From IMG/VR virus record IMGVR_UViG_3300043571_000425: a DNA stretch of 64,000 bases; one strand, given 5' to 3'. The DNA is from a virus. Position numbers and translations under genes: made by a program. Under the pieces are notes generated by a model, which worked only from the letters and a program-made list of their open reading frames with translations, was not told where the DNA came from and ran no database searches. Every line of letters starts with the position of its first letter. Position 1 is the first letter of the stretch. Shown in pieces: positions 7,911 to 64,000 of the stretch.

Positions 7911-7913
7911 TTT

Positions 7914-8240: not shown

Positions 8241-8241
8241 G

Positions 8242-8957: not shown

Positions 8958-8962
8958 AATCA

Positions 8963-13845: not shown

Positions 13846-14049
13846 ATGACTGTAAAAGAGTTTAAAGAATATTTGGATAAATTCTTAACGGAAAATCCAG
13901 AATTAGAAAATCAGGAATTTGTAATTTACGATGAGTCTAATATGACTCATCACACGATAGAAACAATCAGAGACGACGGGTATCATGATGTTGTTTCTGT
14001 AGTGATTTATACGCTAACCCGCCAAACCCCTGATTTTTTTCTTCCCTAA
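13846..14049 (+). CDS. hypothetical small protein
   Basis: 67-aa ORF. Its 3' end overlaps the 3' end of the convergent terminase gene by 36 nt, so its reality is uncertain. Confidence 0.35.
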   Translation: MTVKEFKEYLDKFLTENPELENQEFVIYDESNMTHHTIETIRDDGYHDVVSVVIYTLTRQTPDFFLP

Positions 14050-15513: not shown

Positions 15514-15530
15514 AATAAATTATCTTAAAT

Positions 15531-15863
15531 ATGCCTAATTATAAAGCCCGTTATGGCAACCTGAAAAAGCACAAGAAGAAATGCAGAAAAGCACACCTTA
15601 GAACTCATGGACTTTGTACGGTGTGCTTGGTTAATAAGTCGGAACAGGTGCATCATTCCAGTTATCGGAAGTCGGGGGACAGGTACGGCATTAACATTTT
15701 CCCCTCGTGTTTTCACTGTCATAAATATATCTGCCATAGTCCTAAAAATTGGATTGTTCACCCCACAGATCCGGAATGGAAGAATCACAACACCCCGGCA
15801 TTTACTAAGATGCTACAGGCGAATTATAGGAAGATTCAGAAGTTTTATAATCAAAAACCCTAG
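15531..15863 (+). CDS. HNH endonuclease-like protein
   Basis: CTVCLVNKSEQVHHSSY...NIFPSCFHCHKYICH fits CxxC...HH...N...CxxCH of the beta-beta-alpha-Me zinc finger. It lies divergently next to terL, as in many cos/HNH packaging systems. Confidence 0.5.
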   Translation: MPNYKARYGNLKKHKKKCRKAHLRTHGLCTVCLVNKSEQVHHSSYRKSGDRYGINIFPSCFHCHKYICHSPKNWIVHPTDPEWKNHNTPAFTKMLQANYRKIQKFYNQKP

Positions 15864-39475: not shown

Positions 39476-40433
39476 CTTGCAGGATGACTAATCCCTTCTG
39501 AGGGATTGAAACAAGTACAATTGATGGAAATAAAATATTAAGCATAGACTTGCAGGATGACTAATCCCTTCTGAGGGATTGAAACAATTTTGAGCTTGAC
39601 ATAATCATCGTTATGTCACTTGCAGGATGACTAATCCCTTCTGAGGGATTGAAACGTCATGCTTATCAGATGAACTTCACCCAAATACGCTTGCAGGATG
39701 ACTAATCCCTTCTGAGGGATTGAAACAACTTGCTCCTGCACTGCCTTGCAGGATGACTAATCCCCTTGCAGGATGACTAATCCCTTCTGAGGGATTGAAA
39801 CAGGCGTGAGTTTGGCGTGACGTGGCGTAAATCTCTTGCAGGATGACTAATCCCTTCTGAGGGATTGAAACCTTAGATGTTAAGACTGTCAGAAAATATC
39901 AAGGTAGACTTGCAGGATGACTAATCCCTTCTGAGGGATTGAAACGTCGGTTCTTCATTAATTTGCTTGCAGGATGACTAATCCCTTCTGAGGGATTGAA
40001 ACTACCGTTAAAGTGTTCATGAATCTTTTGGGGATGACTTGCAGGATGACTAATCCCTTCTGAGGGATTGAAACAGTGTGTGCAGTCAAATACTTAGATA
40101 TTCCATCTGGATTGCAACTTGCAGGATGACTAATCCCTTCTGAGGGATTGAAACAACTTATGACCCTAACATTGCTTGCAGGATGACTAATCCCTTCTGA
40201 GGGATTGAAACCGACTGATAGCTGATTTTTCCAAATAAACGGAGTCCTTGCAGGATGACTAATCCCTTCTGAGGGATTGAAACTGTACTCTTTTGGCAAT
40301 TGTGGTTAACATCTTCCTACGCTCCTTGCAGGATGACTAATCCCTTCTGAGGGATTGAAACTTCTAATATCTGCGAGCGATATTTATTAAAACCATCTTG
40401 CAGGATGACTAATCCCTTCTGAGGGATTGAAAC
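39476..40433 (+). CRISPR. CRISPR array: 14 identical 37-nt repeats plus one 20-nt truncated repeat, 13 spacers
   Basis: The repeat is CTTGCAGGATGACTAATCCCTTCTGAGGGATTGAAAC. Repeat starts are 39476, 39549, 39619, 39690, 39765, 39835, 39909, 39966, 40038, 40118, 40175, 40247, 40325 and 40397. Spacer lengths are 36, 33, 34, 18, 33, 37, 20, 35, 43, 20, 35, 41 and 35 nt. The truncated repeat lies at 39745-39764. Confidence 0.97.
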
Positions 40434-40477
40434 GAGGCGTGGCAACTATAAGGAAAATCCCTTACCAGTTGCCAGTT

Positions 40478-52400: not shown

Positions 52401-52834
52401 CGTTCGGTGGAGGCGGGCTGTTTAACTTCAACAAAGGTGGTAAAGTCCCCAACTATGCCGACGGTGGAGTAATTGGGGCAATTGGTGATGCACTTCAAAG
52501 GGAGCGTCAAGCATCAGGAGTAAAACCAGTATTAGCGGCGTTGACTCCGGGTGAAAGGGTGCTAACGGTACGCCAGAACAAACGGTTTGAGGAATTGCAA
52601 ATGGAACGGGTTCTCAATTACGCCGGAGGTGGCGTGGTTGGCGGTTCAGTTCCCAACATGAACTTTACCGCTCCCAGTCAATCATCAACCGTTAATGTCA
52701 ATGTACCCGTCAATGTGAATGGGGGACAGGGTGATACATCTGTTAATGTGCCACAACTACAAAACGCCGTCCGGTCTGCGGTATTGTCAGAAATTCAGAA
52801 ACAGCAAAGGCCAGGTGGTGCGTTGAATAAGTAG
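40478..52834 (+). CDS. giant tape measure protein (4118 aa) with M23 peptidase-like and SLT-like domains
   Basis: The track start TTG 40427 lies inside the last CRISPR repeat, so ATG 40478 (MNLGELIVDLSLDYAEFNQSLEQAKKA) is preferred. The protein has long helical and Gly/Ala hydrophobic tracts typical of tape measure proteins. An M23-like block (QHSKVDFD...EYGHLS...GPHLDFGV) lies at about 50020-50430. An SLT-like block (LYETGGTLSPSARNSRTSATGLIQFMPATARGLG) lies at about 50530-50950. Confidence 0.8.
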   Translation: MNLGELIVDLSLDYAEFNQSLEQAKKAASSAAASIEKSFQKLSLSVDIDDKSLTDLNQHINISVQHLKQANTFFRNNPITTYVNDDSLTDLNEHLNVKVRHLKEVNHFYAQNPITVRTNTGQLDELEERLDRLGNRKVTMEVDTIVLNQYQDKTAEVVEQAISNAIRQMQVPQSSGQSAQQSPQSQQNRVQRVQLGLDPLRSIGEGVFENVGKQLSKGVGSSMQDSLGVDMKSFTQIASNSVLRYFGVGKKAQKDPKNNKSKIKSIVEDAIKDYSTAVDKGSGSIRGELDDVDLSSVDAIARNSLLRYFGVGKKAQSDPKNNQAKIKSIIEDAVKQYSGTDVKKENSGVISNTFSEINKAFSETVNKGVQGIAERAKLATIKEVRRASTNVLANSSSGVRDSVNGLFDAAESGKKGSVSQYIGRGLASQSRKAVEGTFSNLFPTVAPIVKEFLATGNKPPVEKQAPKQRPADGLLEAANQLKEAAKAISESAIKVQSVAPVIHEQIADPWGSADLTPVQIPLKPAKQKTKKQEPEPELVLLELPQQTQQHFKTLNAEVGKNTAKSLEFLKATTQENIKQQTTQSIANIKAALAAINQYFKTEYKQVKDAVDNAKSTGHIDDINAARSAAKNYQRRLSGAVKEIDRIVKSGEDAGFSKEFGSELSQVHATGKGQLVASDKRVGQQLGGLNLLEANQFKKDVKTYTELAKKAGIEIDAGLIKGLDIGSAGVTAETRDLLNGLIATVKKTMGIQSPSWVMMGIGAMIAAGLGLGIKNGVVDVSSAVGLLTDAIGDGLKDIQSIPSEGIEAYNQALENAVSDKSELTKKVFEEAKGASKATLPGMVLGTTMMGVANAGLVPKSIETPLRHLGAFYQGKAGVHQMNPQLAREAEIATIFNMMQLAEKGDGYFPDSGFVGMVKHKTLPTLAHTLGGFNYTQNKDKGLQINDVYDWHQDTNTDKNTPFKLPKNLGSKIYKFLESKKWLQDLLGVEENLFGNTKAFTKYNKKTGRELFSVLNTQSGNDFQLGHSVHSELIGGNPYIQTHRLDGKGLDDLTDLATNPYIASKGNFGQFLNHPKIQEYVLGGSQQNQQPSGLLGQLLPALKKDLGSNPILTNLFSSATKAIGKGGSFKDIGTNLITSFGQGILSSDDGVFGILGTFAKSAIGLVKKIFGIASPSKIFHWIGLMLGLGLEEGAMSSLSKANQKITGSVKATTNNAKTIIQGDHSLGLIGNIPLGVKKEVSIGNQVQGADGTVSGSAGYVKNVPYTINDLRNHVGDILSANKNYGTSVVPGLSGILENNLFPTFSKAFKTIKSSPVYTQKNQQKNPQAVYAATPNIHSQPTILNHAQHAFNTLSSIHSQPTRLNAPQQSQATVLQPTNTILQPLQSNTLRQANTVLQPTNTILQPLQSNTLRQANTVLQPNWMFHNPTSPQTVSAAIPLQQITQLGTELGNNVISAVGNSIKQTRGLSYPTLGQYMRNAVVAAGSAMSGSLMGMLGGHLKTFFPMIMKVALPMAGVAALKLGDGITGNLLKNGIFKQGGFLTELLSAFSGIKLGSMGGAGIKSAITGITQFLGVFPMLSPLARIGSMAANAGVVAHDVFSGGNGGRKSVNTVLENKTTENLKEAGLNSTGNSTADLVENLAETTVGALFRMIGFDGVKASAVQALIKGKVKQHSEQIANAVGGVGNGQISALIDGYVKGDSTQLAGTAESMLKNMGITGLDSKQIKLAANAITATLSGLHAKFGQEGFGLGESINKGFRKSLANLANAKDDLEYNLKKAVGKASAGDVIGNIFKRMSRGFVVDKGMFDEMWNQVGASFKKGAFKGMSGNEQEGMFGNMMGFMASATAMFAPITAMAASLAPLFLPLMPIIAGIGGAIRMVMPQLSKLFEGMQRVETLQRRFTFLGGSKAGGIAELNYAKGVANQMNVPSEVAANSYSQLAIASKGTKMEGQGVKDLFEGITASLSALGISGQDASLVFMAYTQIMAKGKLSMEELRQQLGEKFPPAMGVFAKAMGVSVAEMNDLVASGSILSQDILPKVAKVLKLDYGKSASGSADSLVLALTKLGNVGFEITSIFTDKLSGALAGIVNFASNGLGFLKDSLGTLIPLGQSFVIGFTATIAVGLTVMMTKIKPVVVLLGTLQSLVLSTFSAIASNLMPMIIGITSDVADGWLGAESDLMQNMTRGFTNMFTGLFSAIDSGVRAMSGKPLFAEGLIGGKGVNLIVAGIDAIKGALGAVFSIIPPGVVELGALVFMLEQAIALGSMALGPALVGGGKALLGMVVGIKNAFIGTVGTVKIWGELMMTSMNAGAVATEKAAARAMIANQGWKMSLIALRSMATHVAIAMGILMFSKGDFSNPLGDKIGETSKKVTVNLNNMKSAALSLGEAFDKAAGQLVNLNNKLTDTLPSKGVQLDIRNFWDKTKSTTSDDLIRNSNRAEVERRQREKDGKQTFGDKALNVADKALKYSGITTPMYLYNSWLSDRLVPKTDDATIDLVKKYGLEKYIAPDKNLRVDMAQSQVIKALQDSEANTKALASTYSKLGLTKQTQQNYLIPEKMGPVSNTFDIDAQIKAANDKIARLNELDKKYTFYQSSRADGRISKEEDLSGFSFGGKTANPERIIRGDLDIEKNIIREQIKQLENQRASTAQGVERFKSNKEIQLIDAQILARVKRGVQLEKANPSDATRKELGGIDTAVLELKTRREKIINGMGSDVKDAKETLDILEQHKKDILDGADEATKSFNIQIRRAIAKNIDQQIELAKNAFDIAQKSVPAQFGDDLYKNAANKLRDTQIAFDRTSSADKIASATFRASVNSSSERSANVAPILANRQVADLEKQQKELDNLTSRKKETIDAYAAILRYGANKDVKDELEKLKAEVLKDDESLAQLQDDVATAKRGIRQTLVDQTKQVADYYRTAVREAQAVSIEFQKAQKTLENSRMQNKLREALIGAGDNIYTQFIEGIINIISQTTEIEKQQLEARKQRIDYENNIEDIRLQAAELQRSLPGKIIPLDSSMADNFNLSLEEINGTVNTINNSVKNVANTLSNDVVDAAKKANTELDKLNQSIKTIDNSSNSWIEGFGSKFADLTKSLENGFDGVGNAIADMTLKTSSWLASMATGQGLLQNLAGGVKSVVSGVFGQQAGQQLDQGVQQLASNPIGAINNFLGAKNKILSPIQGTTVEDLLRYKPSYQQGFYGSRDKGARQHSKVDFDSRAKAGQNAEIIASLPGTATAKKWTGNSGGVFINSILPSGQKITLEYGHLSLESIKKTFGGQLGKSIEVQAGQKLGNVIHDALSSGPHLDFGVRLNGKYIEPQKFLQDFMGGKYGGVVSGKTMQQRQPVPKVPPIPGLDPRIDTKFLQTVANIAQSVGAKPEDLLKTMLYETGGTLSPSARNSRTSATGLIQFMPATARGLGTNINALAQMSPQDQLVFVQKYLKQNSRGQKLDSFRKVLSTVFAGNPNASLGIGDGDITLGNYLKKAESRYGNTARQLTQIAMQGGAIDPNSMQQAVTQAGRLKLNTAAQQLQTNQINSNLTPEQIRENELRQRLEAYRFIRSTRKSALGDISSTKDSTLGTQRTVLEGLSPNMSNADRFGIQLADLRRKIEKDMEALQQIIDDTDGAIAQKPDLQAAFNLAMKKFPNDPKLAADAVKANDLTFKATAFRNAEAKKDLAFLKSNADDILKASIADFDKKEFFRLSEQDIAQQTKVIEQLQQQLQSIQKLEEIDPLNPLVLKIPSLQKNIDLLSLNRDQYQQLLDLQKRYYEGGGKGGNMSEEAYQKEFKAILNVNSVKKEGIDLNFNYANTVKKIEQAQVELDTSSKMFDLLNQNKFDLRSSNIETLKSGMANEFYTNRLTRDLETEKEMERARRAKEQLAIDVNEYNLKFPENAFNADQIKEMTAALDELNKKKLDDITRSAKTFDMALKEMFQENLINGLTSGFTELINGTKSFGDVLNDLANNILNGVLNIALNSLLKGAFGGGGLFNFNKGGKVPNYADGGVIGAIGDALQRERQASGVKPVLAALTPGERVLTVRQNKRFEELQMERVLNYAGGGVVGGSVPNMNFTAPSQSSTVNVNVPVNVNGGQGDTSVNVPQLQNAVRSAVLSEIQKQQRPGGALNK
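44585..44732. repeat. perfect 66-bp tandem repeat, 2.2 copies, inside the tape measure gene
   Basis: The unit ACAGTTTTACAGCCTACCAATACAATTTTACAGCCCTTACAGTCAAATACTCTAAGACAGGCTAAT occurs at 44585-44650 and 44651-44716, with a partial third copy to 44732. It encodes (TVLQPTNTILQPLQSNTLRQAN)x2. Confidence 0.9.
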
Positions 52835-56558: not shown

Positions 56559-56576
56559 ATTCTATGTCCATAGAAT
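56559..56576. promoter_or_regulatory. 18-bp palindrome (operator-like), copy B
   Basis: ATTCTATGTCCATAGAAT lies just downstream of the RHH-like gene and about 220 nt upstream of 56338. Confidence 0.5.
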
Positions 56577-56583
56577 AAATTTG

Positions 56584-56790
56584 TCAAGCTATTTTTGAAG
56601 ATTTTTCTTTGTTCTCAATAAAAACAGCCAAACCCCTTGCTACAGAAGGAATACGAACTACTTGCTCTAGTAGCTCACTCAGTTTTAAATTAAGATTAGC
56701 AGCATATTCCTCATACAATGCGATCGCTGTAGGAGTGAGGTTAATGTGCTTAGAAACCTTCTTTTCACTATATTTCTGACTTCGTGCCAT
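56584..56790 (-). CDS. ribbon-helix-helix-like regulator
   Basis: The preferred start ATG 56790 (MARSQKY) has AAGGAG 6 nt upstream. KVSKHINLTPTAIALYEEYAANLNLKLSELLEQ fits an RHH strand-helix-helix. Palindromes flank the gene. Confidence 0.4.
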   Translation of the reverse strand: MARSQKYSEKKVSKHINLTPTAIALYEEYAANLNLKLSELLEQVVRIPSVARGLAVFIENKEKSSKIA

Positions 56791-56799
56791 ATCTCTCCT

Positions 56800-56816
56800 T
56801 TCTATGTCCATAGAAT
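56800..56816. promoter_or_regulatory. palindrome (operator-like), copy A
   Basis: TTCTATGTCCATAGAAT lies immediately upstream (minus sense) of the RHH-like gene SD. Confidence 0.5.
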
Positions 56817-57067
56817 AGAGAATATCACAAAAAATCCCCACTGCCTTCAGTCCAGCAGGGATTTTTGTAGTGGTAGTGCGATCGCTAAAATACGAGTAAC
56901 AAATAAGATTCCTAGAACATCACTCCCAGGAAGTAAAAATCCCCAGCTTACTAGCCAGGGATATAAACCAGATCTTAACCGCAGAGGGAGGAGTTGAACC
57001 GTCCATAGAAGATAACAAAATACCCACCGATGTCTTACCATTTAAACGACTCTGCATATTTATTATA

Positions 57068-57226
57068 TCAAAAATCTGATAATGTACCAGTATTAAACCG
57101 CCAATATTTTGCAATCATTTTGTCAATTAGCCGTTGAGTTTTTGATGGTAATTCCCAATAGATGCTATTGATTGCATCGGCGTTTTGCTCATCAATTAAT
57201 TGATTAATTTGTTGTTGATTCAACAT
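57068..57226 (-). CDS. small ORF (52 aa), below the ORF-track cutoff
   Basis: ATG 57226 has AGGTGA upstream and lies 8 nt after the ATPase gene stop. It translates to MLNQQQINQLIDEQNADAINSIYWELPSKTQRLIDKMIAKYWRFNTGTLSDF*. Confidence 0.45.
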   Translation of the reverse strand: MLNQQQINQLIDEQNADAINSIYWELPSKTQRLIDKMIAKYWRFNTGTLSDF

Positions 57227-57234
57227 GATTTCAC

Positions 57235-59157
57235 CTAAATAAACAAAACTTTGATTCTCTCACCCTGCGACACCATTGAGGCTGTAGTTTTCGCTTGCGC
57301 TTGATCACCGTCGTTACTTGGTAAAAAACCTATAGCAAGCAATTTATATTCATTACCAATACCATACAGGTGCAATTGTCCAGCCGCTTGGTAAATTGTA
57401 TCTCTGGTCAGATATTTTTTGACTTCAACAATAGTACCGCCATTAAAATCAGTGGCAATATCAATGAAGCCGCCATTGCTTTTAACTTCTGTTTGCACCT
57501 TATAGCCGTGTTCAGTTAGTCGAGTTGCTATAGCTTTTTGTAAATCTTCCTCCCGCCATTTTTCGGGCAATTCTAAATTAGCGGTAATCATTGCCCAAGT
57601 GACAACTTCATCCGTTAGTTCCAAAGCATTTTTTAAAAGTTTTAGAGCGTCAGGAGTTAAAGTTTCACCCTTTACCTGTTGCCATGCTTGAGTTAATTCG
57701 GAATCAGTGGGATTCCTACCTAATTTGTCTATCCATGAGCCTATAACATGATAAGGATTTATGTCTTCTTTCTGCTCCGGTTGTGGTGTGTCTTGTGGTT
57801 TTTCAGTTTGCTCCAAATCATCAATATTAAATTGAGGAATTAGAGCAATATAAGGATTACCTTTAGTGGGAATTACTAGCGCATAGCGTACACCCTGCTT
57901 ATCAAGTAGCTCACAAACTTCTTTCAATAAGTCAAGAATATCACCTTTAACATTAAGAAAGTCGGATGGATTACTTAATATATAGCCTGACACTTTACCC
58001 AGTGCAATAAAGCAAATATTCTTGTAACTAGGACGACTAAAACCAGTGCAGCCACTTAGCGGATTTTGCCCCATAAACACGCCATGAATTTTCATTGCGG
58101 CTGTGAAATTAATGATGTAATTCCACATTCCCTGCAAGTTAAGTGCGGTTTCTTTGGTTACTTGTTTTTTGCCTGTTCCTGGTAGTCCCTTCCCTCCACC
58201 GTAGACGACATTTACCTCATCCTGAATTAAGAATATTTCTGATAGACCCGCACCTTTCCGATTGTGTTCAAATTCTTGTTGCCTCTCATCAATAATCTTA
58301 GTGGCAAACTTAATCCATTCTGGCAATGATTCCAGTCCCTCAAACTTTTTAGAGAACTTGCACAACCAACGGGTGACAAAATTCTTGGGGTCACTCCCAA
58401 TCACATAAGCAGCACCTTGTGATTGAGCCGCAATCTTATTAATGATTACCCCTGCCAGAGTTGATTTACCAGACTGAGTTTCACCCCATAATCCAAAGTG
58501 GTGGTTAGCCCTATTCCCCATATCCTGAACTGCGGAACTATCACACAATTCATCAATCCAATTATCATCAATTCTGATGTATTCAGGATATTCTGTAGCT
58601 AATTCTTGCAGCACAGCCATCACGCCAGGGTTAATGATTTCTTGGACTGCATCCTCATTAAATTCCGCTACTTCAGGACTAGGGATAGAAGATTGAGAGC
58701 TTGGTAATTGTCGAGGTTGTTCAATTACCGCTTGTTGGACTTGCGGCAGTTCCACTAATCCCTGAAGCCCATATTGTTGCATCCATCTACCGCGTTCTTC
58801 CACTGGCAGGGAGTTAACGTAAGCTGCTAATTCCCGTTTGGAATTAATCTGTTGACGGGCTTGCTCAAATGCAAATTCACCCTTCAAACTTTCTTTAACA
58901 ATAGCGTGGTTAGCCGTTCCAATAGCTTGGTAATCTTTCTCTTTTTGACTTCTATCTAGCGCAGAAGTTGTAAATATTCCGCCTGAAACTAATCCCCAAA
59001 TTGATTGAATTAATTTAACTTCTGGTAGTTGCTGTGGGAACATTACAGGTGCAAAAGTTCCAGTAATTGCGGACGCTGCAACCAATCCCATCAGCCACCG
59101 TTCAGCGTTCATTAAAGGGCTAAATGCCTCCTTTCTCGTAGCAAATGGATTGGTCAT
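57235..59157 (-). CDS. membrane-anchored FtsK/VirD4-like P-loop ATPase with C-terminal PD-(D/E)XK-like domain
   Basis: Two N-terminal hydrophobic helices. Walker A HHFGLWGETQSGKSTLAG and Walker B-like EIFLIQDEVN. The C-terminus LTEHGYKVQTEVKSNGGFIDIATDFNGGTIVEVKKY...AAGQLHLY fits a D...E.K nuclease fold motif. Confidence 0.6.
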   Translation of the reverse strand: MTNPFATRKEAFSPLMNAERWLMGLVAASAITGTFAPVMFPQQLPEVKLIQSIWGLVSGGIFTTSALDRSQKEKDYQAIGTANHAIVKESLKGEFAFEQARQQINSKRELAAYVNSLPVEERGRWMQQYGLQGLVELPQVQQAVIEQPRQLPSSQSSIPSPEVAEFNEDAVQEIINPGVMAVLQELATEYPEYIRIDDNWIDELCDSSAVQDMGNRANHHFGLWGETQSGKSTLAGVIINKIAAQSQGAAYVIGSDPKNFVTRWLCKFSKKFEGLESLPEWIKFATKIIDERQQEFEHNRKGAGLSEIFLIQDEVNVVYGGGKGLPGTGKKQVTKETALNLQGMWNYIINFTAAMKIHGVFMGQNPLSGCTGFSRPSYKNICFIALGKVSGYILSNPSDFLNVKGDILDLLKEVCELLDKQGVRYALVIPTKGNPYIALIPQFNIDDLEQTEKPQDTPQPEQKEDINPYHVIGSWIDKLGRNPTDSELTQAWQQVKGETLTPDALKLLKNALELTDEVVTWAMITANLELPEKWREEDLQKAIATRLTEHGYKVQTEVKSNGGFIDIATDFNGGTIVEVKKYLTRDTIYQAAGQLHLYGIGNEYKLLAIGFLPSNDGDQAQAKTTASMVSQGERIKVLFI

Positions 59158-59158
59158 T

Positions 59159-59458
59159 TTATCCCCCTACGTTAATTCCAATTATCAAAGCCGTGATTGC
59201 AAATGCCCCAAAAACAAGGCTCGGAGCAAACCCAATTATTGTTTGGTTTTGATTTAAAATCCCCCTGGACTTGTACCAGAGTCCACACCAATTTGTGAAT
59301 CCCAGTGCGAATATTAAGAACATTCCTAAAATGAATAGCGCGATCGCCCCAACTCTACTATTGGGAAAGCTTCTGATTACTATTCCTAATAATTGAAAGA
59401 AGGCGTATCCGCAGAATAGACATCCGCTAATAAACAATTCCTTCATTGTGATCTTCAT
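59159..59458 (-). CDS. small membrane protein
   Basis: 99 aa with 3 predicted hydrophobic helices. It ends 1 nt before the ATPase start. Confidence 0.55.
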   Translation of the reverse strand: MKITMKELFISGCLFCGYAFFQLLGIVIRSFPNSRVGAIALFILGMFLIFALGFTNWCGLWYKSRGILNQNQTIIGFAPSLVFGAFAITALIIGINVGG

Positions 59459-59537
59459 TTTTTACCTTCTCATGTCGTATTGCAACCAAAGAATCATGCC
59501 CAAAAACAGGGCAACCAACAGAATTACAATCACACCT

Positions 59538-60041
59538 TTAGCGTCTGGAACTATCATTCACACTACTCTCCTTACTAGATAAATAAAATATATTTGCACA
59601 TCCAAAAGCTAATTCTGCACCAATTACAAATACAGCACAGAGAACTTTTACAAACATTACGCTAGGATTACCTAATTGCTTCAAATTAATTTGATAATCC
59701 GTCCAAAAAGTGTAAGCAGCAATTAACAAGAAAGTCGCTATCCCCAAGAAACTAACAATATCAAAAACTTGTTTAGCTTCAGTTTCAATTTTGGGCTTGT
59801 CCAGGATTTTAAGTAAAATTCTGGGGTCAAAAATCACAGTCATTACACTAGCTTCAATGCCGATGATTAATGCAATTGACGCGCTAGTTGCAAAGATTCT
59901 CTGCCAGTATGCAGTGCCTTTCAAGATATCGTAAAAATAGGGGAATAGGGTGTAGGCATTAAACGCCATAATTCCCCAACCTACTTTATTAAAAGTAGTA
60001 AATAGCGCGGTGTCCGCCTCGCTATTACGCTTAAATATCAT
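59538..60041 (-). CDS. membrane protein
   Basis: 167 aa with about 4 hydrophobic helices. ATGA overlap with the upstream gene. Confidence 0.55.
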   Translation of the reverse strand: MIFKRNSEADTALFTTFNKVGWGIMAFNAYTLFPYFYDILKGTAYWQRIFATSASIALIIGIEASVMTVIFDPRILLKILDKPKIETEAKQVFDIVSFLGIATFLLIAAYTFWTDYQINLKQLGNPSVMFVKVLCAVFVIGAELAFGCANIFYLSSKESSVNDSSRR

Positions 60042-60475
60042 CCAAATATCTCCGTGGCTTGAACATCATAAATCTGTTGGAAACCGTCTAAATTAACTTG
60101 AGTTTCAGCAGCATTTAGACCGTAGCGGGAAACTTCTTTGGCGTGGTTTGCTTGCGCTACTCTACGCGCTATATCAGTTTTCATCATGAACTTGGAGTGG
60201 TTCAAGTTCAACTCGTCCAGTTGGGCTAATTTACCAACAATTCCTTGCTCGTATTTAACGATCTCTTGAGCTATTTCTAATTCTCCGTCCATCGCTCCTG
60301 ATTCCCTTGCACTTTTCAATAATTGGTTTGGTGATATTTCCGTTGGCAGTTGATTCTTTGCTTGAATCCGCGTCATGGCATCGCCCATGATGCCTACTTT
60401 TGTCGGGTCAGCACCAATGCCCGATAATCTTGATTTGTCAGTAGGCGCAATTCCGCCGAATAGGTTCTCCAGCAT
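60038..60475 (-). CDS. hypothetical protein
   Basis: 145-aa soluble-looking ORF within the coupled operon. Confidence 0.5.
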   Translation of the reverse strand: MLENLFGGIAPTDKSRLSGIGADPTKVGIMGDAMTRIQAKNQLPTEISPNQLLKSARESGAMDGELEIAQEIVKYEQGIVGKLAQLDELNLNHSKFMMKTDIARRVAQANHAKEVSRYGLNAAETQVNLDGFQQIYDVQATEIFG

Positions 60476-60815
60476 AGTTTAAATTCCCCTGGTTTTGGTT
60501 TTGATTTTTGTTGATTGATAGAAAAAAACACAAGATACATACTAAGAATGATGTTCCTAAAAACCCAATGGTCATTAAGTTAATCATCCTGGATTCATCG
60601 TCAATTCGTTTTTCTGATTCAGATTGTTGTCGCCGATTTTGGTCTTTGTGATAGTCAGAAGTTATTATCAATTGTCTGACTATATCTGAATCAGGAACAC
60701 CCTTAAAACTCATCTCACCAGTTGGCTTGACGGTAAATTCGATTGGTTTCTCCCGTGATTTTTCCTGAGTTTGTGTCTCCTCCTCCCATAGATCGGGGAG
60801 GTCTGGAAATTGCAT
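60438..60815 (-). CDS. membrane protein
   Basis: 125 aa with one C-terminal hydrophobic helix (MINLMTIGFLGTSFLVCILCFFLSI). Confidence 0.5.
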   Translation of the reverse strand: MQFPDLPDLWEEETQTQEKSREKPIEFTVKPTGEMSFKGVPDSDIVRQLIITSDYHKDQNRRQQSESEKRIDDESRMINLMTIGFLGTSFLVCILCFFLSINKNQNQNQGNLNYAGEPIRRNCAY

Positions 60816-60880
60816 AAAACAGAACTCCTACTAATACAAAACATTGAATAAACACGGCTACAGTCATCCAATTAGAAGGT

Positions 60881-61417
60881 CTAATTATCGAGGAAACCGC
60901 TAAAAGCCTCTTCGATGATTCCTGTAATTTGTCCGTGAAAGATTTCTGAATCTGCTTTGTAGCCCTCCAATTCTTCAGCTACGTAATTGACAACATTAGG
61001 AGCAAATTGCTTGGCTCTCTGTGTGATTTTTTGGGCTGCGTTTTTCTCGTGCTTGGTAAACTCTGAGTCAAAAGCATTGGATAGACCAGATACTTCCGAT
61101 TCAATAGCATTTCTCAATCCAATAACTGCGGGCTTCAGGGTTTGCGCTTGCTGTGAATCATTGGTAGTCGCTGGGGTATTCTTCTTATTTTTCTTCCCCT
61201 TAGTTTCATCGGTTGTTGCTAATTGTCCGCCGTTTCCACCAACAGTCAAACCAGCATTCTCCTTATCAATTTCACCCGCTACAAATTGAGCATTTGCATC
61301 ATCTAAAGCAGCGGGGTCAATACCGTATTGAGCGCAGATAGATTGGGTCTTTTCCCAAACTGTCTCTATTGTCATTTCTGACTTCATGAAACTTTTAACT
61401 AAATCTGCAACTGTCAT
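60881..61417 (-). CDS. hypothetical protein
   Basis: 178 aa with a low-complexity central KGKKNKKNTPATT region. Confidence 0.5.
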   Translation of the reverse strand: MTVADLVKSFMKSEMTIETVWEKTQSICAQYGIDPAALDDANAQFVAGEIDKENAGLTVGGNGGQLATTDETKGKKNKKNTPATTNDSQQAQTLKPAVIGLRNAIESEVSGLSNAFDSEFTKHEKNAAQKITQRAKQFAPNVVNYVAEELEGYKADSEIFHGQITGIIEEAFSGFLDN

Positions 61418-61566
61418 TTTTCAATCCCCAATAATAATTTTTTGATTTCTTTCCTAACTGTGGCAGTAAAAGCGAGTAGTCCGGGTTTCGTCGTCCACTC
61501 GCTGTAGCTTCCGTCTGGTTCGTGTCGTCTGATAGTGAGAATAATTTCAGTTTCACTGTTTTGCAT
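61414..61566 (-). CDS. small ORF (50 aa), below cutoff
   Basis: ATG 61566 has GAGGT upstream, and its TGA overlaps the next ATG (ATGA at 61414-61417). It begins MQNSETEIILTIRRHEPDGSYSEWTTKPGLLAFTATVRKE... Confidence 0.45.
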   Translation of the reverse strand: MQNSETEIILTIRRHEPDGSYSEWTTKPGLLAFTATVRKEIKKLLLGIEK

Positions 61567-61684
61567 TAACTACCTCGGACTCAACTTTTGTGGTGTGAAT
61601 GTTATTCGCTGCCACTAATGAAAGTGGCGGAATTGCAAACAATAATAAGACAACGATTGCGGCTTCTAACTTAGATTTAAACAT
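61553..61684 (-). CDS. small membrane or secreted ORF (43 aa), below cutoff
   Basis: The ATG at 61684 overlaps the preceding stop (AATGTTTAA). MFKSKLEAAIVVLLLFAIPPLSLVAANN... looks like a signal or transmembrane segment. Its 3' end overlaps the next ATG. Confidence 0.45.
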   Translation of the reverse strand: MFKSKLEAAIVVLLLFAIPPLSLVAANNIHTTKVESEVVNAKQ

Positions 61685-61949
61685 TGCTATCTCCTTGGTT
61701 ATATTTCTCTAGTTCCAGTTGAATCATTTTCGCTTTGCCTCTAAAATTTCTGTATTTTACGACAAGCGATCGCACCAATTTCAATCGCTCAATTTGCTCA
61801 TCAGTCTCAATTGGCATCCCAGTCAATTTGCCTGTTTCTGAATCCATAAAACCGGAAAAAACATTCAAATGCTGGGATGCCAACTTTAAATATCGCTGGA
61901 GTTGCCTTTCCCCTACACCAATCTTTTCCGCAACATCCTTCCTAGTCAT
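61677..61949 (-). CDS. HTH DNA-binding protein
   Basis: The preferred start ATG 61949 (MTRKDVAEKIGVGERQLQRYLKLA) overlaps the preceding stop (AATGACTAG). Upstream of this start the track ORF only translates the 12-bp repeat. Confidence 0.5.
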   Translation of the reverse strand: MTRKDVAEKIGVGERQLQRYLKLASQHLNVFSGFMDSETGKLTGMPIETDEQIERLKLVRSLVVKYRNFRGKAKMIQLELEKYNQGDSNV

Positions 61950-62193
61950 TTTCCTGACTTTGACTTTGATCTTGACTTTGATCTTGGCTTTGATTCCACG
62001 CTCTCCAAACGTTTCTTTGCCCCCTTTCTGTTCTTTCTCCGCATAAATCATTGTTGATTGTTACGGCTGCTTGTTTAGCTAAGGATCGTGAAACTCCTTT
62101 GCTTTCCAGCATTTCTTGAAAAAGCTTTGTTCTTGTCTTTTCCACTGATGTCTGCCTCATGTCTGGTATGTACCCAATATAAAGCCACCTCAA
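61942..62193 (-). CDS. hypothetical protein with (QSQD)n tail
   Basis: 83 aa and the first gene of the long minus-strand operon. The C-terminus is encoded by the 12-bp tandem repeat. Confidence 0.45.
   Translation of the reverse strand: MRWLYIGYIPDMRQTSVEKTRTKLFQEMLESKGVSRSLAKQAAVTINNDLCGERTERGQRNVWRAWNQSQDQSQDQSQSQEND
61956..61997. repeat. 12-bp tandem repeat (about 3.5 units)
   Basis: GACTTT-GACTTTGATCTT-GACTTTGATCTT-GGCTTTGATTCC. Confidence 0.85.
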
Positions 62194-62988: not shown

Positions 62989-63496
62989 AATTCTATTTTT
63001 GGACTTAGATGGTACTGTCCGCAAAAGTAAATCTGGCGCGACTTTCATTAATGATCCCTATGACCAAGAATTGATTGATGGGGTGGAAGATGCGATCGCT
63101 CGCTACCACGACTACAAAATAATTGGGGTTACTAATCAAGGTGGCGTAATTGCTGGACATAAATCGCTGGAGAACTGTTTTGAGGAACAACGCCAAACCC
63201 TGAAACTGTTACCCCAAATGAGTTTGTTGTTATTTTGCACGGATAACGGTGATACCATGTTTCGACTCTCACAAAGAGCATTAGAAATGCACGGTATGCC
63301 GATTATGACTAATCGTTCTAATCATTTTGGCAACTTCAGAAAACCCAACTCAGGAATGATTGTTTTTGGTATGAAATATTCCAGGGAAAAGCTGGAGGAA
63401 GTTTTGATGGTGGGAGATAGATCCGAAGATCAAGAATGTGCTGCTAATGCGAATATTCCATTTATGTGGGCGGAGGACTGGAGAAATGGTAAATAA
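62981..63496 (+). CDS. HAD-IIIA family phosphatase (GmhB / polynucleotide 3'-phosphatase-like)
   Basis: Motif I is FLDLDGTV, motif II IIGVTNQGG, motif III FRKPNSGM and motif IV MVGDRSEDQECAANA. ATG 62981 overlaps the preceding stop (ATGAGTAA). Confidence 0.8.
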   Translation: MSKILFLDLDGTVRKSKSGATFINDPYDQELIDGVEDAIARYHDYKIIGVTNQGGVIAGHKSLENCFEEQRQTLKLLPQMSLLLFCTDNGDTMFRLSQRALEMHGMPIMTNRSNHFGNFRKPNSGMIVFGMKYSREKLEEVLMVGDRSEDQECAANANIPFMWAEDWRNGK

Positions 63497-64000
63497 CCAA
63501 CCCGAAGGATATCCCCAGCGATGGGTGTGGGCTGCTTGCGCTCACATCTACGGCGACCCGATAAGCGATCGCACTTGGAGAAAGTACAAGGATATATGCC
63601 AAGTCCCTGATTTTCGCAAGCTTAAAAAAGGAGAAGAACCGGTTATCAGCAAAACTCATTGTCAATGGCTGATGATGTTGGCTTATATTCGGTTTGAGCA
63701 GAAACGGGAGAACGGAACTAAAAGACCAATGGGATGCAAAACTGGTGTGACCATTCAACAAATTATCAAACGGTTAAACTCAAGTCCTGTTTTAAAAACT
63801 GAACTTGATAAGGCATTAGGTGATGCTGTAATTATTGATGGCATTAAAGGTTCGGAAGTACCAACATGGTTAGGTCGTCAAATCGGCAAGTCTCCAACAA
63901 TTAAAACTCTCAGGCGTTGGGCAAAAAAGCACAATCTGAAGTTCTCAACTCATCTGCCTGTTCCGGTAGAAACGTTAGATACATTTTTGCGAATAGCGTG
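63486..64000 (+). CDS. hypothetical protein, N-terminal part (3' end outside window)
   Basis: ATG 63486 overlaps the HAD gene stop (ATGGTAAATAA). The frame stays open for 171 codons to the window edge (MVNNQPEGYPQRWVWAACAHIYGDPISDRTWRKYKD...). It is absent from the ORF track because no stop is reached. Confidence 0.6.
   Translation, partial: MVNNQPEGYPQRWVWAACAHIYGDPISDRTWRKYKDICQVPDFRKLKKGEEPVISKTHCQWLMMLAYIRFEQKRENGTKRPMGCKTGVTIQQIIKRLNSSPVLKTELDKALGDAVIIDGIKGSEVPTWLGRQIGKSPTIKTLRRWAKKHNLKFSTHLPVPVETLDTFLRIA

What the first reader, a model, noticed from the sequence alone, without database searches (positions are those of the whole stretch)
57068..62193. Long translationally coupled minus-strand operon: small membrane proteins plus a membrane-anchored FtsK/VirD4-like ATPase fused to a PD-(D/E)XK-like domain
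Seen in sequence:
- At least 11 consecutive minus-strand genes run from 62193 down to 57068.
- Many starts overlap the preceding stop: AATGACTAG at about 61942-61950, AATGTTTAA at about 61677-61685, ATGA at 61414-61417, ATGA at 60038-60041, and a 1-nt gap at 59158.
- Three of the ORFs (43, 50 and 52 aa) fall below the ORF-track cutoff.
- Four products are clearly hydrophobic.
- The 640-aa product has two N-terminal helices, a Walker A motif (GETQSGKST), a Walker B-like motif (LIQDE), and a C-terminal E..G...D...EVK...Q..Y motif.

Established knowledge: the topology of two transmembrane helices followed by an FtsK/HerA-type P-loop is that of type IV coupling proteins and DNA translocases. D-x(n)-E-x-K is the restriction-endonuclease fold.

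Inference:
- This is a membrane DNA-handling machine encoded by a tailed phage that already has a TerL.
- Candidate functions are superinfection exclusion, degradation of incoming DNA at the membrane, DNA export or import, or a conjugation remnant.
- I do not recognise the arrangement as a named defense or transfer system.
Basis: partly seen in the sequence, partly recalled or inferred. Interest (0 to 1): 0.6.

Follow-up and report, generated by a model that had tools for sequence, protein, structure and literature searches.

The report
Membrane DNA-pump cassette in a cyanophage
A virus of bloom-forming filamentous cyanobacteria carries a conserved, uncharacterised operon for a membrane-anchored FtsK/TcpA-type motor fused to a nuclease, with several small membrane partners. 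The same cassette sits on Nostoc plasmids, so it probably cuts and pumps mobile-element DNA at the cell membrane, possibly from cell to cell.

Summary
A translationally coupled minus-strand operon runs from 62193 to 57068 and ends at a terminator at 56962-56939. It has 12 supported ORFs; a 13th (60715-60867) is probably spurious. The window is a relative of Aphanizomenon siphophage CL131.

The 640-aa product has a two-helix membrane hairpin, a coiled-coil stalk and an FtsK/HerA-superfamily ATPase core. Its best structural matches are TcpA (Z 16.7), EssC (15.5) and FtsK (15.1). A small three-helix domain and an intact PD-(D/E)XK nuclease domain follow (Z 10.0 to AF1548).

The main new result is that five genes (178, 125, 145, 99 aa and the ATPase) keep one order in about 75-85 of 100 related loci. 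These loci are cyanophages of several types, large Nostoc plasmids and one chromosome. An HTH-like protein and an HNH-like protein travel with them. No VirB4, relaxase or known defence family is present, and I found no paper on the module.

The best reading (about 0.4) is a TraB/Spd-like "cut-and-pump" dsDNA translocation machine. Exclusion or defence, intracellular DNA handling and protein secretion remain open.

Two expected TraB features were not found: a clt-like repeat array, and replicon-specific C-terminal domains.

This scan has flagged the same module on other DNA before.

The parts
61942..62193 (-). 83-aa ORF (TTG start) at the head of the operon, with a (QSQD)n tail. It occurs only in the CL131-like lineage and is weakly constrained.
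   Evidence: homologues in 16 of 100 loci; pN/pS 0.5-0.6
61677..61949 (-). 90-aa HTH protein read from the ATG at 61949. It is a candidate operon regulator and is lineage-specific.
   Evidence: weak HTH_3, MerR_1 and HTH_23 matches; PHROG transcription regulator; 19 of 100 loci; start overlaps the preceding stop
61553..61684 (-). 43-aa single-TM peptide
   Evidence: 10 of 100 loci; pN/pS about 0.5
61414..61566 (-). 50-aa soluble ORF; its stop overlaps the next start (ATGA)
   Evidence: 20 of 100 loci; pN/pS 0.25-0.48
60881..61417 (-). Core gene 1: a 178-aa soluble protein with a small N-terminal helical domain, a Lys-rich linker and a C-terminal helical domain. It belongs to an orphan cyanobacterial family.
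   Evidence: homologues in 74 of 100 loci, always first in the cassette; alignment A5; no Pfam or PDB match; Atlas shows only cyanobacterial hypotheticals
60715..60867 (-). 50-aa ORF overlapping the start of the 125-aa gene; probably not a gene
   Evidence: pN/pS 1.56 and 0.80; overlaps 60715-60815 of the 125-aa gene, whose N-terminus is conserved
60438..60815 (-). Core gene 2: a 125-aa tail-anchored membrane protein with a small conserved N-terminal domain and a C-terminal TM at residues 77-103
   Evidence: 74 of 100 loci; alignment A9; TM
60038..60475 (-). Core gene 3: a 145-aa soluble protein. I read it as mostly helical from its sequence and alignment, with no confident model. It belongs to an orphan family.
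   Evidence: 84 of 100 loci; alignment A4; no PDB or Pfam match; Atlas model pLDDT 0.49
59538..60041 (-). 167-aa membrane protein with about 4 TM, inserted into the cassette only in the CL131-like and related phage groups
   Evidence: 21 of 100 loci; 98% identical to CL131 gp110, pN/pS 0.07
59462..59557 (-). 31-aa single-TM peptide that travels with the 167-aa gene
   Evidence: 21 of 100 loci; pN/pS 0.23 against L076
59159..59458 (-). Core gene 4: a 99-aa protein with 3 TM and invariant Gly, Pro and Asn residues. It always lies immediately before the ATPase gene.
   Evidence: 77 of 100 loci; alignment A8; 1-nt gap to the ATPase start
57235..59157 (-). Core gene 5: the 640-aa membrane-anchored FtsK/TcpA-like ATPase, with a C-terminal three-helix domain and a PD-(D/E)XK nuclease domain
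   Evidence: AF2 model pLDDT 89; Foldseek TcpA E 3e-6, FtsK 1e-5; VIA Z 16.7, 15.5 and 15.1
58957..59097 (-). Residues 21-67: a two-helix membrane hairpin, followed by a long stalk helix running to about residue 115
57808..58656 (-). Residues 168-450: the P-loop motor core, with R216-x-N-H-H, Walker A K231, D256-P-K258, Walker B D313-E314 and G363-Q-x-P-L-S
   Evidence: invariant columns of A3; positions checked; profile matches to EssC, FtsK and HerA at E about 1e-5
57625..57756 (-). Residues 468-511: a conserved three-helix domain (W475, P483, W492). It is possibly HTH-like and DNA-binding.
   Evidence: only weak HTH_Tnp_Tc5 and HNH_repeat matches
57238..57555 (-). Residues 535-640: the PD-(D/E)XK nuclease domain (E557, D566, E578, K580, Q594, Y598)
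   Evidence: AF2 pLDDT 94; VIA Z 10.0 to AF1548, 9.3 to NucS, 9.2 to a CdiA-CT nuclease; Foldseek hits are all restriction-fold nucleases; invariant residues
57068..57226 (-). 52-aa ORF at the 3' end of the operon; poorly conserved, and replaced by another gene in CL131
   Evidence: 4 of 100 loci; no match in L001
56939..56962 (-). Terminator-like hairpin with a T run; the likely end of the operon
63438..63998 (+). Member of a conserved HTH-like family (about 150-190 aa). The ORF runs off the window end. The family accompanies the cassette, either just upstream on the same strand or divergent.
   Evidence: 73 of 100 loci including this window, E 2e-41; no Pfam family
15519..15860 (+). Cys/His-rich HNH-like protein (coordinates are the stop-to-stop frame), lying beside TerL. 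It is a homologue of the gene that overlaps the 3' end of the ATPase gene on Nostoc plasmids.
   Evidence: hmmsearch E 1.6e-38; family present in 71 of 100 loci; alignment A10 with invariant CxxC...HH...CxxC...H; weak PDB match to the HNH domain of an HNH-Cascade Cas5, E 0.05

Best explanation
The operon encodes a membrane-embedded DNA-translocation machine that belongs to cyanobacterial mobile elements, both phages and plasmids.

**Shown**
- The 640-aa protein has a membrane hairpin and stalk, an FtsK/TcpA-type motor core with intact ATPase motifs, a small helical domain, and an intact PD-(D/E)XK nuclease domain.
- Four orphan proteins are co-inherited with it in a fixed order: 178 aa soluble, 125 aa tail-anchored, 145 aa soluble and 99 aa with three TM helices.
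- An HTH-like protein and an HNH-like protein usually accompany them.

**Inferred**
- The motor forms a ring at the cytoplasmic membrane, and the small membrane proteins form or gate its channel.
- A nuclease opens the element's DNA. In this phage that nuclease is the fused PD-(D/E)XK domain.
- The motor pumps double-stranded DNA across the membrane or septum. The element's genome would then spread to neighbouring cells of a filament, or to another filament, without a relaxase or a type IV secretion system.
- This is the logic of Streptomyces TraB with its Spd proteins.
For: **Fold and motifs**
- TcpA, EssC and FtsK are the top structural matches (Foldseek E 3e-6 to 1e-5; VIA Z 16.7, 15.5 and 15.1).
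- Walker A, D-P-K, Walker B and GQxPLS are invariant across relatives.
- A profile of the family matches EssC, FtsK and HerA in the PDB at about 1e-5.

**Membrane anchor and partners**
- The N-terminus is a membrane hairpin.
- The partner genes are tightly coupled to the ATPase gene.

**Conservation across mobile elements**
- The five-gene order is kept in about 75-85 of 100 loci.
- These loci include CL131-like siphophages, a phage with a tail tube (L101) and a Leptolyngbya phage.
- They also include 15 large Nostoc or Halotia plasmids. Each of several co-resident plasmids carries its own copy.

**Nuclease partners**
- The PD-(D/E)XK domain is fused in this lineage and lies as a separate gene within 2 kb in three other loci.
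- An HNH-like gene overlaps the ATPase 3' end on plasmids.

**What is absent**
- Neither VirB4 nor a relaxase was among the Pfam hits on record for the called genes within 10 kb of the ATPase in L003, L100 and L101, and Pfam gave neither for the operon's products here.
- There is no PADLOC defence match beyond a P-loop.

**Distribution**
- The family is concentrated in the filamentous, heterocyst-forming family. It was found in 29 of 301 genomes there.
- The matching counts were 3 of 301 in the order sample and 2 of 401 in the phylum sample.

**Analogy**
- Streptomyces needs TraB plus 3-7 diverse spd genes. These are often arranged with overlapping stop and start codons, and they act under a regulator (PMC4447253).
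Against: - No experiment bears on this family, and I found no paper on it.
- I found no clt-like array of short direct repeats near the ATPase gene, either in the window or in 14 related loci.
- The C-terminal helical domain is 87-100% identical between co-resident Nostoc plasmids, so there is no sign of replicon-specific recognition.
- Its HTH nature rests on matches of E 0.01-0.1 only.
- The FtsK 'QRP' arginine is not at the equivalent position; the family has GQ(S/N)P. This is my own reading of the alignment.
- CL131 is described as a lytic phage, and cell-to-cell DNA passage in cyanobacterial filaments has never been reported.
- EssC (protein secretion) and defence HerA proteins score within about 1.5 Z units of TcpA, so the fold alone does not fix the substrate.
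Confidence: 0.4

Rival explanations
1. Exclusion or inter-element warfare. The membrane-anchored motor and its nuclease capture and destroy DNA of competing phages or plasmids as it enters. This would be superinfection or entry exclusion, in the manner of the HerA-nuclease defence complexes.
For: - Defence HerA complexes with nuclease partners (8xaw, 8ziq, Sir2-HerA) score Z 13.6-15.0 against the motor core.
- The nearest folds of the nuclease domain include toxin and CRISPR-ancillary nucleases: CdiA-CT, Card1 and Can2.
- Two very different motor-core alleles share the same N- and C-termini in the CL131-like population. That pattern fits an arms race.
Against: - No PADLOC family matches beyond a P-loop stretch (E 2e-4).
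- The cassette lies in the backbone of plasmids, near parAB in pNPUN02 and at the record start of pNPUN01, and among early or replication genes of phages. It is not in the variable parts of these elements.
- Every co-resident plasmid keeps a nearly identical copy. That is unusual for a defence gene and would make the copies target one another unless there is immunity.
- The nuclease fusion is confined to one lineage.
Confidence: 0.2
2. Intracellular DNA handling for the element itself. The motor and nuclease would resolve, segregate or clear large replicons or concatemers at the membrane or at the closing septum. This would be an element-owned FtsK-plus-resolvase function, or a membrane anchor for replication.
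For: - The motor is of FtsK type.
- The best sequence-level PDB match of the nuclease domain, though weak, is to an archaeal protein (ST1444) that I recall as a Holliday-junction resolvase (E 0.61).
- In pNPUN02 the cassette lies some 10 kb from parAB and a sigma-factor gene. In phages it lies among RecT, DnaN and polymerase genes.
- Near-identical copies on co-resident plasmids are compatible with a sequence-independent housekeeping role.
Against: - Hosts already have FtsK.
- A lytic phage has little need for septal segregation.
- Four dedicated membrane and soluble partners kept in a fixed order suggest a trans-envelope assembly rather than a simple pump.
- No XerCD-like recombinase is part of the cassette.
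Confidence: 0.2
3. Protein secretion. The system would be a minimal type-VII-like apparatus in which the single-domain EssC-like ATPase exports the small soluble proteins of 178 and 145 aa.
For: - EssC and EccC ATPase domains are among the best matches (Z 15.5 and 14.5; profile E 1.8e-5).
- The cassette encodes two small soluble proteins of unknown function alongside membrane partners.
Against: - The protein has one ATPase domain, not three, and the model shows no FHA or DUF domain.
- Neither WXG100 nor EssB appeared among the Pfam matches of the operon's products.
- The motor carries a nuclease domain here and is linked to an HNH-like gene elsewhere. Both point to DNA as the substrate.
Confidence: 0.05

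Closest known systems
TcpA, the FtsK-like coupling protein of Clostridium perfringens plasmid pCW3 (PDB 6o1w-6o1z)
   Same: It is the best structural match to the motor core: Foldseek E 3e-6, and VIA Z 16.7 over 245 residues at 15% identity. From my own knowledge, TcpA also has an N-terminal membrane anchor of two helices. Both are encoded by mobile elements.
   Different: - TcpA works with a VirB4-like ATPase, a VirB6-like channel and a relaxase in a type IV secretion system (PMC4027160). None of these appears in this cassette or its neighbourhood.
- TcpA has no nuclease domain.
- The partner proteins here are orphans.
Streptomyces TraB with Spd proteins (pSVH1, pIJ101): double-stranded DNA conjugation and intramycelial spreading
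   Same: - A single membrane-associated FtsK-like ATPase with no relaxase.
- An operon of 3-7 small, diverse and often membrane-bound proteins with overlapping stop and start codons.
- A regulator gene (PMC4447253).
- A multicellular filamentous host.
   Different: - No sequence relationship to TraB was tested.
- No clt-like repeat array was found.
- The C-terminal domain is not replicon-specific.
- Nuclease partners are present here but are not known for TraB.
- The host is a diderm cyanobacterium, and here the carrier is a tailed phage.
FtsK / SpoIIIE chromosomal DNA translocases (PDB 2ius, 2iut, 6t8b)
   Same: The layout is alike: a membrane anchor, a linker, a RecA-like motor and a small C-terminal domain. 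Walker A, D-P-K and Walker B motifs are shared. VIA Z is 15.1.
   Different: - Pfam FtsK_SpoIIIE is not reached by the window's protein. Only 12 of 52 relatives give sub-threshold hits, best 8e-6.
- There is no alpha domain.
- The arginine of the QRP motif is not conserved.
- The carrier is a mobile element, with dedicated partners and a nuclease.
TdtA, the DNA-donation ATPase of Thermus thermophilus transjugation (ICETh1)
   Same: It is an element-encoded hexameric FtsK/HerA-type ATPase that pushes DNA out of the donor without a classical type IV system (abstract of PMC5365140). From my memory, ICETh1 also encodes nucleases.
   Different: It was not compared here by sequence or structure. Uptake in Thermus depends on natural competence of the recipient. 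It has no equivalent small-membrane-protein cassette.
HerA-nuclease anti-phage complexes (HerA-DUF4297, Sir2-HerA; PDB 8xaw, 8ziq, 8woc)
   Same: They pair an FtsK/HerA-type ring ATPase with a nuclease effector. VIA Z is 13.6-15.0.
   Different: They are cytosolic, with no membrane anchor or membrane partners. PADLOC gives no defence family for the operon's products beyond short marginal matches: mad8 over the P-loop and mad1 over the 90-aa protein's first 22 residues.

Membership tests
FtsK/SpoIIIE/TraB/TcpA branch of the FtsK-HerA P-loop ATPases | Walker A GxxxxGK[ST] and Walker B hhhhDE | tested here: met
   GETQSGKST (K231) and FLIQDE (D313, E314) are invariant in 18 relatives.
FtsK/SpoIIIE/TraB/TcpA branch of the FtsK-HerA P-loop ATPases | D-P-K motif on the strand after the Walker A helix (a hallmark recalled from FtsK sequences) | tested here: met
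   D256-P-K258 is present, with D256 and K258 invariant. That this motif is a family hallmark is my own knowledge.
FtsK/SpoIIIE/TraB/TcpA branch of the FtsK-HerA P-loop ATPases | Motor-core fold superposes on solved FtsK or TcpA motors | tested here: met
   Foldseek probability 1.0, E 3e-6 (TcpA) and 1.4e-5 (FtsK). VIA Z 16.7 at rmsd 5.9 over 245 aligned residues, and Z 15.1 at rmsd 3.9 over 244 aligned.
FtsK/SpoIIIE/TraB/TcpA branch of the FtsK-HerA P-loop ATPases | Pfam PF01580 (FtsK_SpoIIIE) at or above its gathering score | tested here: not met
   The window protein gives no PF01580 hit; its only related match is DUF87 at 20.8 bits against a cut-off of 23.2. Twelve of 52 relatives match PF01580 at E down to 8e-6; their scores against the cut-off were not listed.
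FtsK/SpoIIIE/TraB/TcpA branch of the FtsK-HerA P-loop ATPases | Arginine finger in the T-Q-R-P motif | tested here: inconclusive
   The family has G-Q-(S/N)-P-L-S at the corresponding place, and an Arg lies nearby in GFSRP. The equivalence was judged by eye only.
FtsK/SpoIIIE/TraB/TcpA branch of the FtsK-HerA P-loop ATPases | Hexameric ring with a DNA-sized pore and DNA-stimulated ATPase activity | not testable with these tools
   The protein is too large for the complex tool, and the test needs biochemistry or cryo-EM.
FtsK/SpoIIIE/TraB/TcpA branch of the FtsK-HerA P-loop ATPases | C-terminal winged-helix DNA-recognition domain (FtsK gamma, TraB C-terminus) | tested here: inconclusive
   A conserved three-helix domain occupies residues 468-511. 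Only weak HTH_Tnp_Tc5 and HNH_repeat matches were found (E 0.014-0.13), and the fold searches were dominated by the nuclease domain.
Streptomyces TraB/Spd-type dsDNA transfer system | A single FtsK-like ATPase with no relaxase and no VirB4 in the module | tested here: met
   Pfam on the operon's products and the precomputed Pfam hits within 10 kb in L003, L100 and L101 show neither a relaxase nor VirB4.
Streptomyces TraB/Spd-type dsDNA transfer system | Operon of several small, diverse, partly membrane-bound proteins with overlapping stop and start codons | tested here: met
   The description of spd operons is in PMC4447253.
Streptomyces TraB/Spd-type dsDNA transfer system | clt locus: an array of about 8-bp direct repeats next to the translocase gene | tested here: inconclusive
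   No array was found by exact 6-mer counts in 200-bp windows, or by 7-mers with one mismatch in the 420 bp downstream, in the window and 14 loci. Degenerate or distant sites are not excluded.
Streptomyces TraB/Spd-type dsDNA transfer system | Sequence homology to TraB | not tested
   No TraB sequence was available through the tools used.
Type IV secretion / conjugation module (TcpA- or VirD4-coupled) | VirB4-family ATPase and a relaxase encoded with the coupling protein | tested here: not met
   Neither is in the operon nor within 10-12 kb on the Nodularia and Nostoc plasmids. MOB-suite calls some of these plasmids conjugative, but the T4SS genes must lie elsewhere.
PD-(D/E)XK nuclease superfamily | Alpha-beta-beta-beta-alpha-beta core fold | tested here: met
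   AF2 pLDDT 93.8. VIA Z 10.0 to AF1548 (rmsd 2.5, 98 aligned) and 9.3 to NucS. All top Foldseek hits are restriction-fold nucleases.
PD-(D/E)XK nuclease superfamily | Catalytic D ... (D/E)-x-K, with the accessory E and QxxxY | tested here: met
   E557, D566, E578, K580, Q594 and Y598 are invariant in 32 sequences.
PD-(D/E)XK nuclease superfamily | A Pfam family at its gathering score (PDDEXK_9) | tested here: not met
   The domain scores 22.4 bits against a cut-off of 25.5. Fourteen of 32 relatives match, best 3.9e-7.
Known anti-phage defence systems (PADLOC-DB 2.0) | A match of any operon product to a defence-system model | tested here: not met
   Only mad8 over the P-loop (E 2e-4) and mad1 over 22 residues (E 7e-4).
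Type VII secretion EssC/EccC | Three tandem FtsK-like ATPase domains behind the membrane anchor | tested here: not met
   The model shows a single ATPase domain, at residues 168-450.

The most novel reading that the evidence does not exclude
The phage uses this cassette as a bacterial 'movement' apparatus. After infecting one cell of an Aphanizomenon or Dolichospermum filament, it cuts its replicated genome and pumps it through the septum into neighbouring cells. Infection would then spread along the filament without virions. Nostoc plasmids would use the same cassette to colonise whole filaments. This would be the first dsDNA cell-to-cell transfer system described in cyanobacteria, and the first virus-encoded one in bacteria.
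Probability: 0.2. Interest if true: 0.9.

Novelty: new variant of a known kind. Interest (0 to 1): 0.62.

Why it matters
Bloom-forming and symbiotic filamentous cyanobacteria carry many large plasmids and are hit by poorly known phages. How DNA moves among their cells is almost unstudied.

This cassette is a compact and widely shared candidate for that job. It consists of one motor, four to six small partners and a nuclease, and it is found in phages and in the backbone of Nostoc megaplasmids.

If it moves double-stranded DNA, several things would follow:
- The Streptomyces-type, relaxase-free mode of transfer would extend to a second multicellular bacterial lineage and to viruses.
- It would help explain how plasmids and infections spread through filaments.
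- It would offer a tool for delivering DNA into strains that are hard to transform.

If instead it is an exclusion device, it would be a new membrane-based defence type.

Either way the claim is directly testable with point mutants of K231 and of D566/K580.

Tried and rejected
**Searches that gave nothing useful**
- Complex prediction of the ATPase N-terminus (residues 1-135) with the 99-aa protein gave no verdict (score 0.00). It counts neither for nor against binding.
- The window's own assembly is not held.
- PHROGs, NCBIfam and PADLOC gave nothing useful for any operon product.
- Profile searches of the 145-aa and 178-aa families against the PDB found nothing credible.
- ESM Atlas look-alikes were only cyanobacterial hypothetical clusters with scores below 0.9.
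- Pfam gave no family for the HTH-like family or for the HNH-like family. The 'NinG protein' label on the Leptolyngbya phage homologue is the depositor's own. I recall lambda NinG as a structure-specific DNA endonuclease; the label is unverified here.
- VirD4 and TrwB did not appear among the 50 best structural matches shown.

**Ideas tested and dropped**
- I looked for a clt-like repeat array, following earlier scan notes on other plasmid families, and found none.
- I considered that the fused PD-(D/E)XK domain replaces the HNH-like gene in this lineage. I rejected this as a simple replacement, because the window has an HNH-like homologue at 15519-15860 beside TerL.
- I tested whether co-resident plasmids have diverged C-terminal domains, which would indicate replicon-specific recognition. 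They have not; identity is 87-100%.
- The 50-aa ORF at 60715-60867 was rejected as a gene.
- The first alignment (A1) was too diverse for locus searches, so A3 was used instead.

Full report
**1. Observation**

A run of minus-strand genes extends from 62193 to 57068. The starts overlap or abut the preceding stops exactly as quoted:
- AATGACTAG at 61942-61950
- AATGTTTAA at 61677-61685
- ATGA at 61414-61417 and at 60038-60041
- a 1-nt gap before the ATG at 59157

Hydropathy windows show transmembrane segments in five products:
- 43 aa: 1 TM
- 125 aa: a C-terminal TM
- 167 aa: about 4 TM
- 31 aa: 1 TM
- 99 aa: 3 TM

A terminator-like hairpin at 56962-56939 follows the last ORF.

Comparison with the homologous genes of phage CL131 and of a more distant viral contig gives pN/pS of 0.07-0.36 for the larger genes. 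The 31-aa peptide gives 0.23 against the distant contig, so these are real genes. The 50-aa ORF at 60715-60867 overlaps the conserved start of the 125-aa gene and has pN/pS of 0.8-1.6, so I do not count it.

**2. Context**

The window is a tailed phage. It has a T4-type TerL and a 4135-aa tape measure protein with an M23 domain. The 640-aa protein is 88% identical to gp108 of Aphanizomenon flos-aquae siphophage vB_AphaS-CL131. There the whole block (gp107-gp117) is annotated as hypothetical. The CL131 paper does not discuss these genes in its main text. The supplementary passages I retrieved list them only as hypothetical proteins.

**3. The large protein**

With an alignment of 52 relatives, AlphaFold2 gives a confident model (mean pLDDT 89). 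Its parts are:
- Helices at residues 4-39 and 45-115. These form a membrane hairpin at about residues 21-40 and 49-67, the second helix being only moderately hydrophobic. A long stalk follows.
- A disordered linker at 141-166.
- An alpha/beta ATPase core at 168-450.
- Three short helices at 468-511.
- An alpha-beta-beta-beta-alpha-beta domain at 535-640.

Foldseek ranks the pCW3 coupling protein TcpA first (E 3e-6), then FtsK motors (1e-5) and EssC/EccC domains. Re-alignment gives these Z-scores:

| Match | Z |
|---|---|
| TcpA | 16.7 |
| EssC | 15.5 |
| FtsK | 15.1 |
| HerA | 13.4-15.0 |

These are effectively tied, and no VirD4-type protein is among the rows shown. A family profile matches EssC, FtsK and HerA chains at about 1e-5.

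The following are invariant across 18 relatives that reach down to 27% identity: R216-x-N-H-H, Walker A K231, D256-P-K258, Q-D313-E314 and G-Q-x-P-L.

Pfam's FtsK_SpoIIIE model is not reached by the window's protein, and only 12 of 52 relatives match it, at E down to 8e-6. The family is therefore a divergent branch of the FtsK/TcpA group and not a recognised member.

**4. The C-terminal domains**

Folded alone (pLDDT 94), residues 535-640 match only restriction-endonuclease-fold proteins:

| Match | Z |
|---|---|
| AF1548 | 10.0 |
| NucS/EndoMS | 9.3 |
| a CdiA-CT nuclease | 9.2 |
| Card1 | 8.8 |
| Can2 | 8.1 |
| XisH family | 7.5 |

E557, D566, E578, K580, Q594 and Y598 are invariant in 32 relatives, most of which are stand-alone cyanobacterial proteins. 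The nuclease call is sound.

The three-helix domain at 468-511 is conserved in every family member, with or without the nuclease. I could only obtain weak hints that it is an HTH: HTH_Tnp_Tc5 and HNH_repeat at E 0.014-0.13.

**5. The cassette**

I gathered 100 loci from several sources:
- public phage records
- PLSDB plasmids
- one genome per species
- IMG/VR viral contigs
- metagenome contigs

I then ran iterated profile searches of each window protein against all their ORFs. Five genes recur in the same order:

| Gene | Loci with a homologue |
|---|---|
| 178 aa | 74 |
| 125 aa | 74 |
| 145 aa | 84 |
| 99 aa | 77 |
| ATPase | 99 |

Most of the missing cases are truncated contigs.

The carriers are diverse:
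- CL131-like siphophages.
- A second phage group at about 60% identity.
- A third at about 36% identity.
- A phage with tail-tube and DNA polymerase B genes (L101).
- Leptolyngbya phage Lbo402-yong5, whose depositors called the ATPase a 'DNA translocase coupling protein'.
- A Nodularia plasmid.
- Fifteen Nostoc or Halotia megaplasmids.
- The Chlorogloeopsis chromosome.

The 167-aa and 31-aa membrane genes, and the four small genes at the head of the operon, occur only in the CL131-like and neighbouring phage groups.

Two further families travel with the core:
- **An HTH-like protein of about 150-190 aa.** It occurs in 73 loci. In this window it is the plus-strand ORF at 63438-63998, which runs off the window end.
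- **A Cys/His-rich protein of 110-150 aa.** It occurs in 71 loci. On Nostoc plasmids its gene overlaps the last 80-140 nt of the ATPase gene. Its invariant CxxC...HH...CxxC...H pattern and a weak match to the HNH domain of an HNH-Cascade Cas5 (E 0.05) suggest an HNH nuclease, though Pfam does not confirm this. In this window its homologue lies at 15519-15860, beside TerL.

The PD-(D/E)XK domain is fused to the ATPase only in the CL131-like lineage. It lies as a separate gene 1.4-2 kb downstream in three other loci.

**6. What it is not**

- No operon product matches a PADLOC defence model beyond short marginal stretches: a P-loop stretch of the ATPase and 22 residues of the 90-aa protein.
- Neither VirB4 nor a relaxase was among the Pfam hits on record for the called genes within 10 kb on the Nodularia plasmid and two metagenomic elements, and neither is annotated within 12 kb on two Nostoc plasmids. 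It is therefore not part of a type IV secretion locus, including the cyanobacterial MPF_C class described by Guglielmini et al. (PMC4027160).
- The single ATPase domain rules out a canonical EssC.

**7. Distribution**

A family profile found matches in the following samples of species genomes:

| Sample | Genomes with a match |
|---|---|
| Phylum of the Chlorogloeopsis genome | 2 of 401 |
| Its order | 3 of 301 |
| Its family | 29 of 301 |

Each count includes the Chlorogloeopsis genome itself, the centre of every sample. All named hits are Nostocales, apart from one 2.3-kb contig binned to Acetobacteraceae, which I take to be mis-binned.

Strains often hold several copies, one per plasmid, and some copies are fragments or carry stop codons. 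Copies on co-resident plasmids are 87-100% identical throughout, including the C-terminal domain.

**8. Mechanism**

The anatomy is closest in logic to Streptomyces TraB and its Spd proteins. That system has these features (PMC4447253):
- one membrane-associated FtsK-like motor and no relaxase
- several small, fast-evolving, translationally coupled membrane proteins, needed to pass double-stranded plasmid DNA across septa
- control by a regulator

My best explanation (0.4) is that this cassette is an element-owned 'cut-and-pump' dsDNA translocation machine acting at the membrane or septum of filamentous cyanobacteria.

- **Shown:** the folds, the motifs, the membrane anchoring, the fixed gene order, and the linkage to nucleases and to mobile elements.
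- **Inferred:** ring formation, the channel role of the small proteins, DNA as the substrate, and the direction and purpose of transport.

Two TraB hallmarks that I tested were not found. There is no clt-like repeat array near the gene, and the C-terminal domain does not diverge between replicons. I therefore claim analogy and not membership.

The rivals are exclusion or defence (0.2), intracellular resolution, segregation or replication anchoring (0.2), and protein secretion (0.05). The remainder is unknown.

**9. Novelty**

I found no paper that describes or tests this module. Earlier notes of this scan describe the same or sister modules on other DNA, with similar TraB-like or 'cut-and-pump' readings. 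I treated those as leads only. My own tests agree on the fold and on the phage-plasmid sharing, but they did not reproduce a clt-like array for this family.

I rate it a new variant of a known kind: an FtsK-type membrane translocase module of mobile elements. Its partner proteins are entirely orphan, and here it has a lineage-specific nuclease fusion.

Noticed in passing
window 57808-58656 (ATPase core) compared with proteins P0065, P0074 and P0091: CL131-like populations hold a second allele of about 612 aa. It shares the N-terminal anchor (about 65% identity) and the C-terminal helical and nuclease domains (about 85%). Its P-loop core, however, is almost unrelated (GPKGSGKS / LICDEFE). This looks like a motor swap inside a conserved frame.
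   Followed up: partly
L077-L090 (IMG/VR contigs), about 6986-9035 in each locus: In the phage group at about 60% identity, an extra ORF of about 170 aa precedes a 516-aa ATPase and matches the same profile. It looks like a truncated paralogue or a split gene.
   Followed up: no
window 15519-15860 (+), next to TerL at 14014-15513 (-): A Cys/His-rich HNH-like protein is homologous to the gene that overlaps the ATPase 3' end on Nostoc plasmids. Its position beside the terminase recalls, from my memory, the HNH-terminase pairs of cos phages. The ORF at 16005-16820 also gives a weak hit to the PD-(D/E)XK profile (E 2e-4).
   Followed up: partly
window 63438-63998 (+), runs off the window end: This ORF belongs to an orphan HTH-like family (conserved DRTW and TxYRWG motifs) found beside the cassette in 73 of 100 loci. 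It is a candidate regulator or DNA-recognition factor of the system.
   Followed up: partly
window 56560-56817 and 57001-57010: Two identical 18-bp palindromic sites (TTCTATGTCCATAGAATA) bracket the 85-aa gene at 56584-56841, which an earlier scan note reads as ribbon-helix-helix. A third half-site, GTCCATAGAA, lies between the operon's terminator and its last ORF.
   Followed up: no
L005 (pNPUN02) 13574-13600: The HNH-like gene of pNPUN02 carries a 21-bp insertion with an in-frame stop, relative to pNsp_a and others. This plasmid's copy is probably inactivated.
   Followed up: no
L005, L006, L104 and L105 (Nostoc plasmids), between the 145-aa gene homologue and the ATPase gene: A gene annotated 'four helix bundle protein' is inserted at variable positions inside the cassette on several Nostoc plasmids. 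It looks like a mobile insertion.
   Followed up: no
window 40427-52834 (+): A single 4135-aa ORF carries a tape-measure domain (TMP_3, E 1e-24) and an M23 peptidase domain, which implies an exceptionally long tail. The scan has already noted this.
   Followed up: no
window 19021-20157 (-); L003 and L005: The phage encodes a sigma-70-family factor. Sigma-factor genes also lie on the Nodularia and Nostoc plasmids about 10 kb from the cassette, beside parAB in pNPUN02. This hints at shared backbone content between these phages and plasmids.
   Followed up: no
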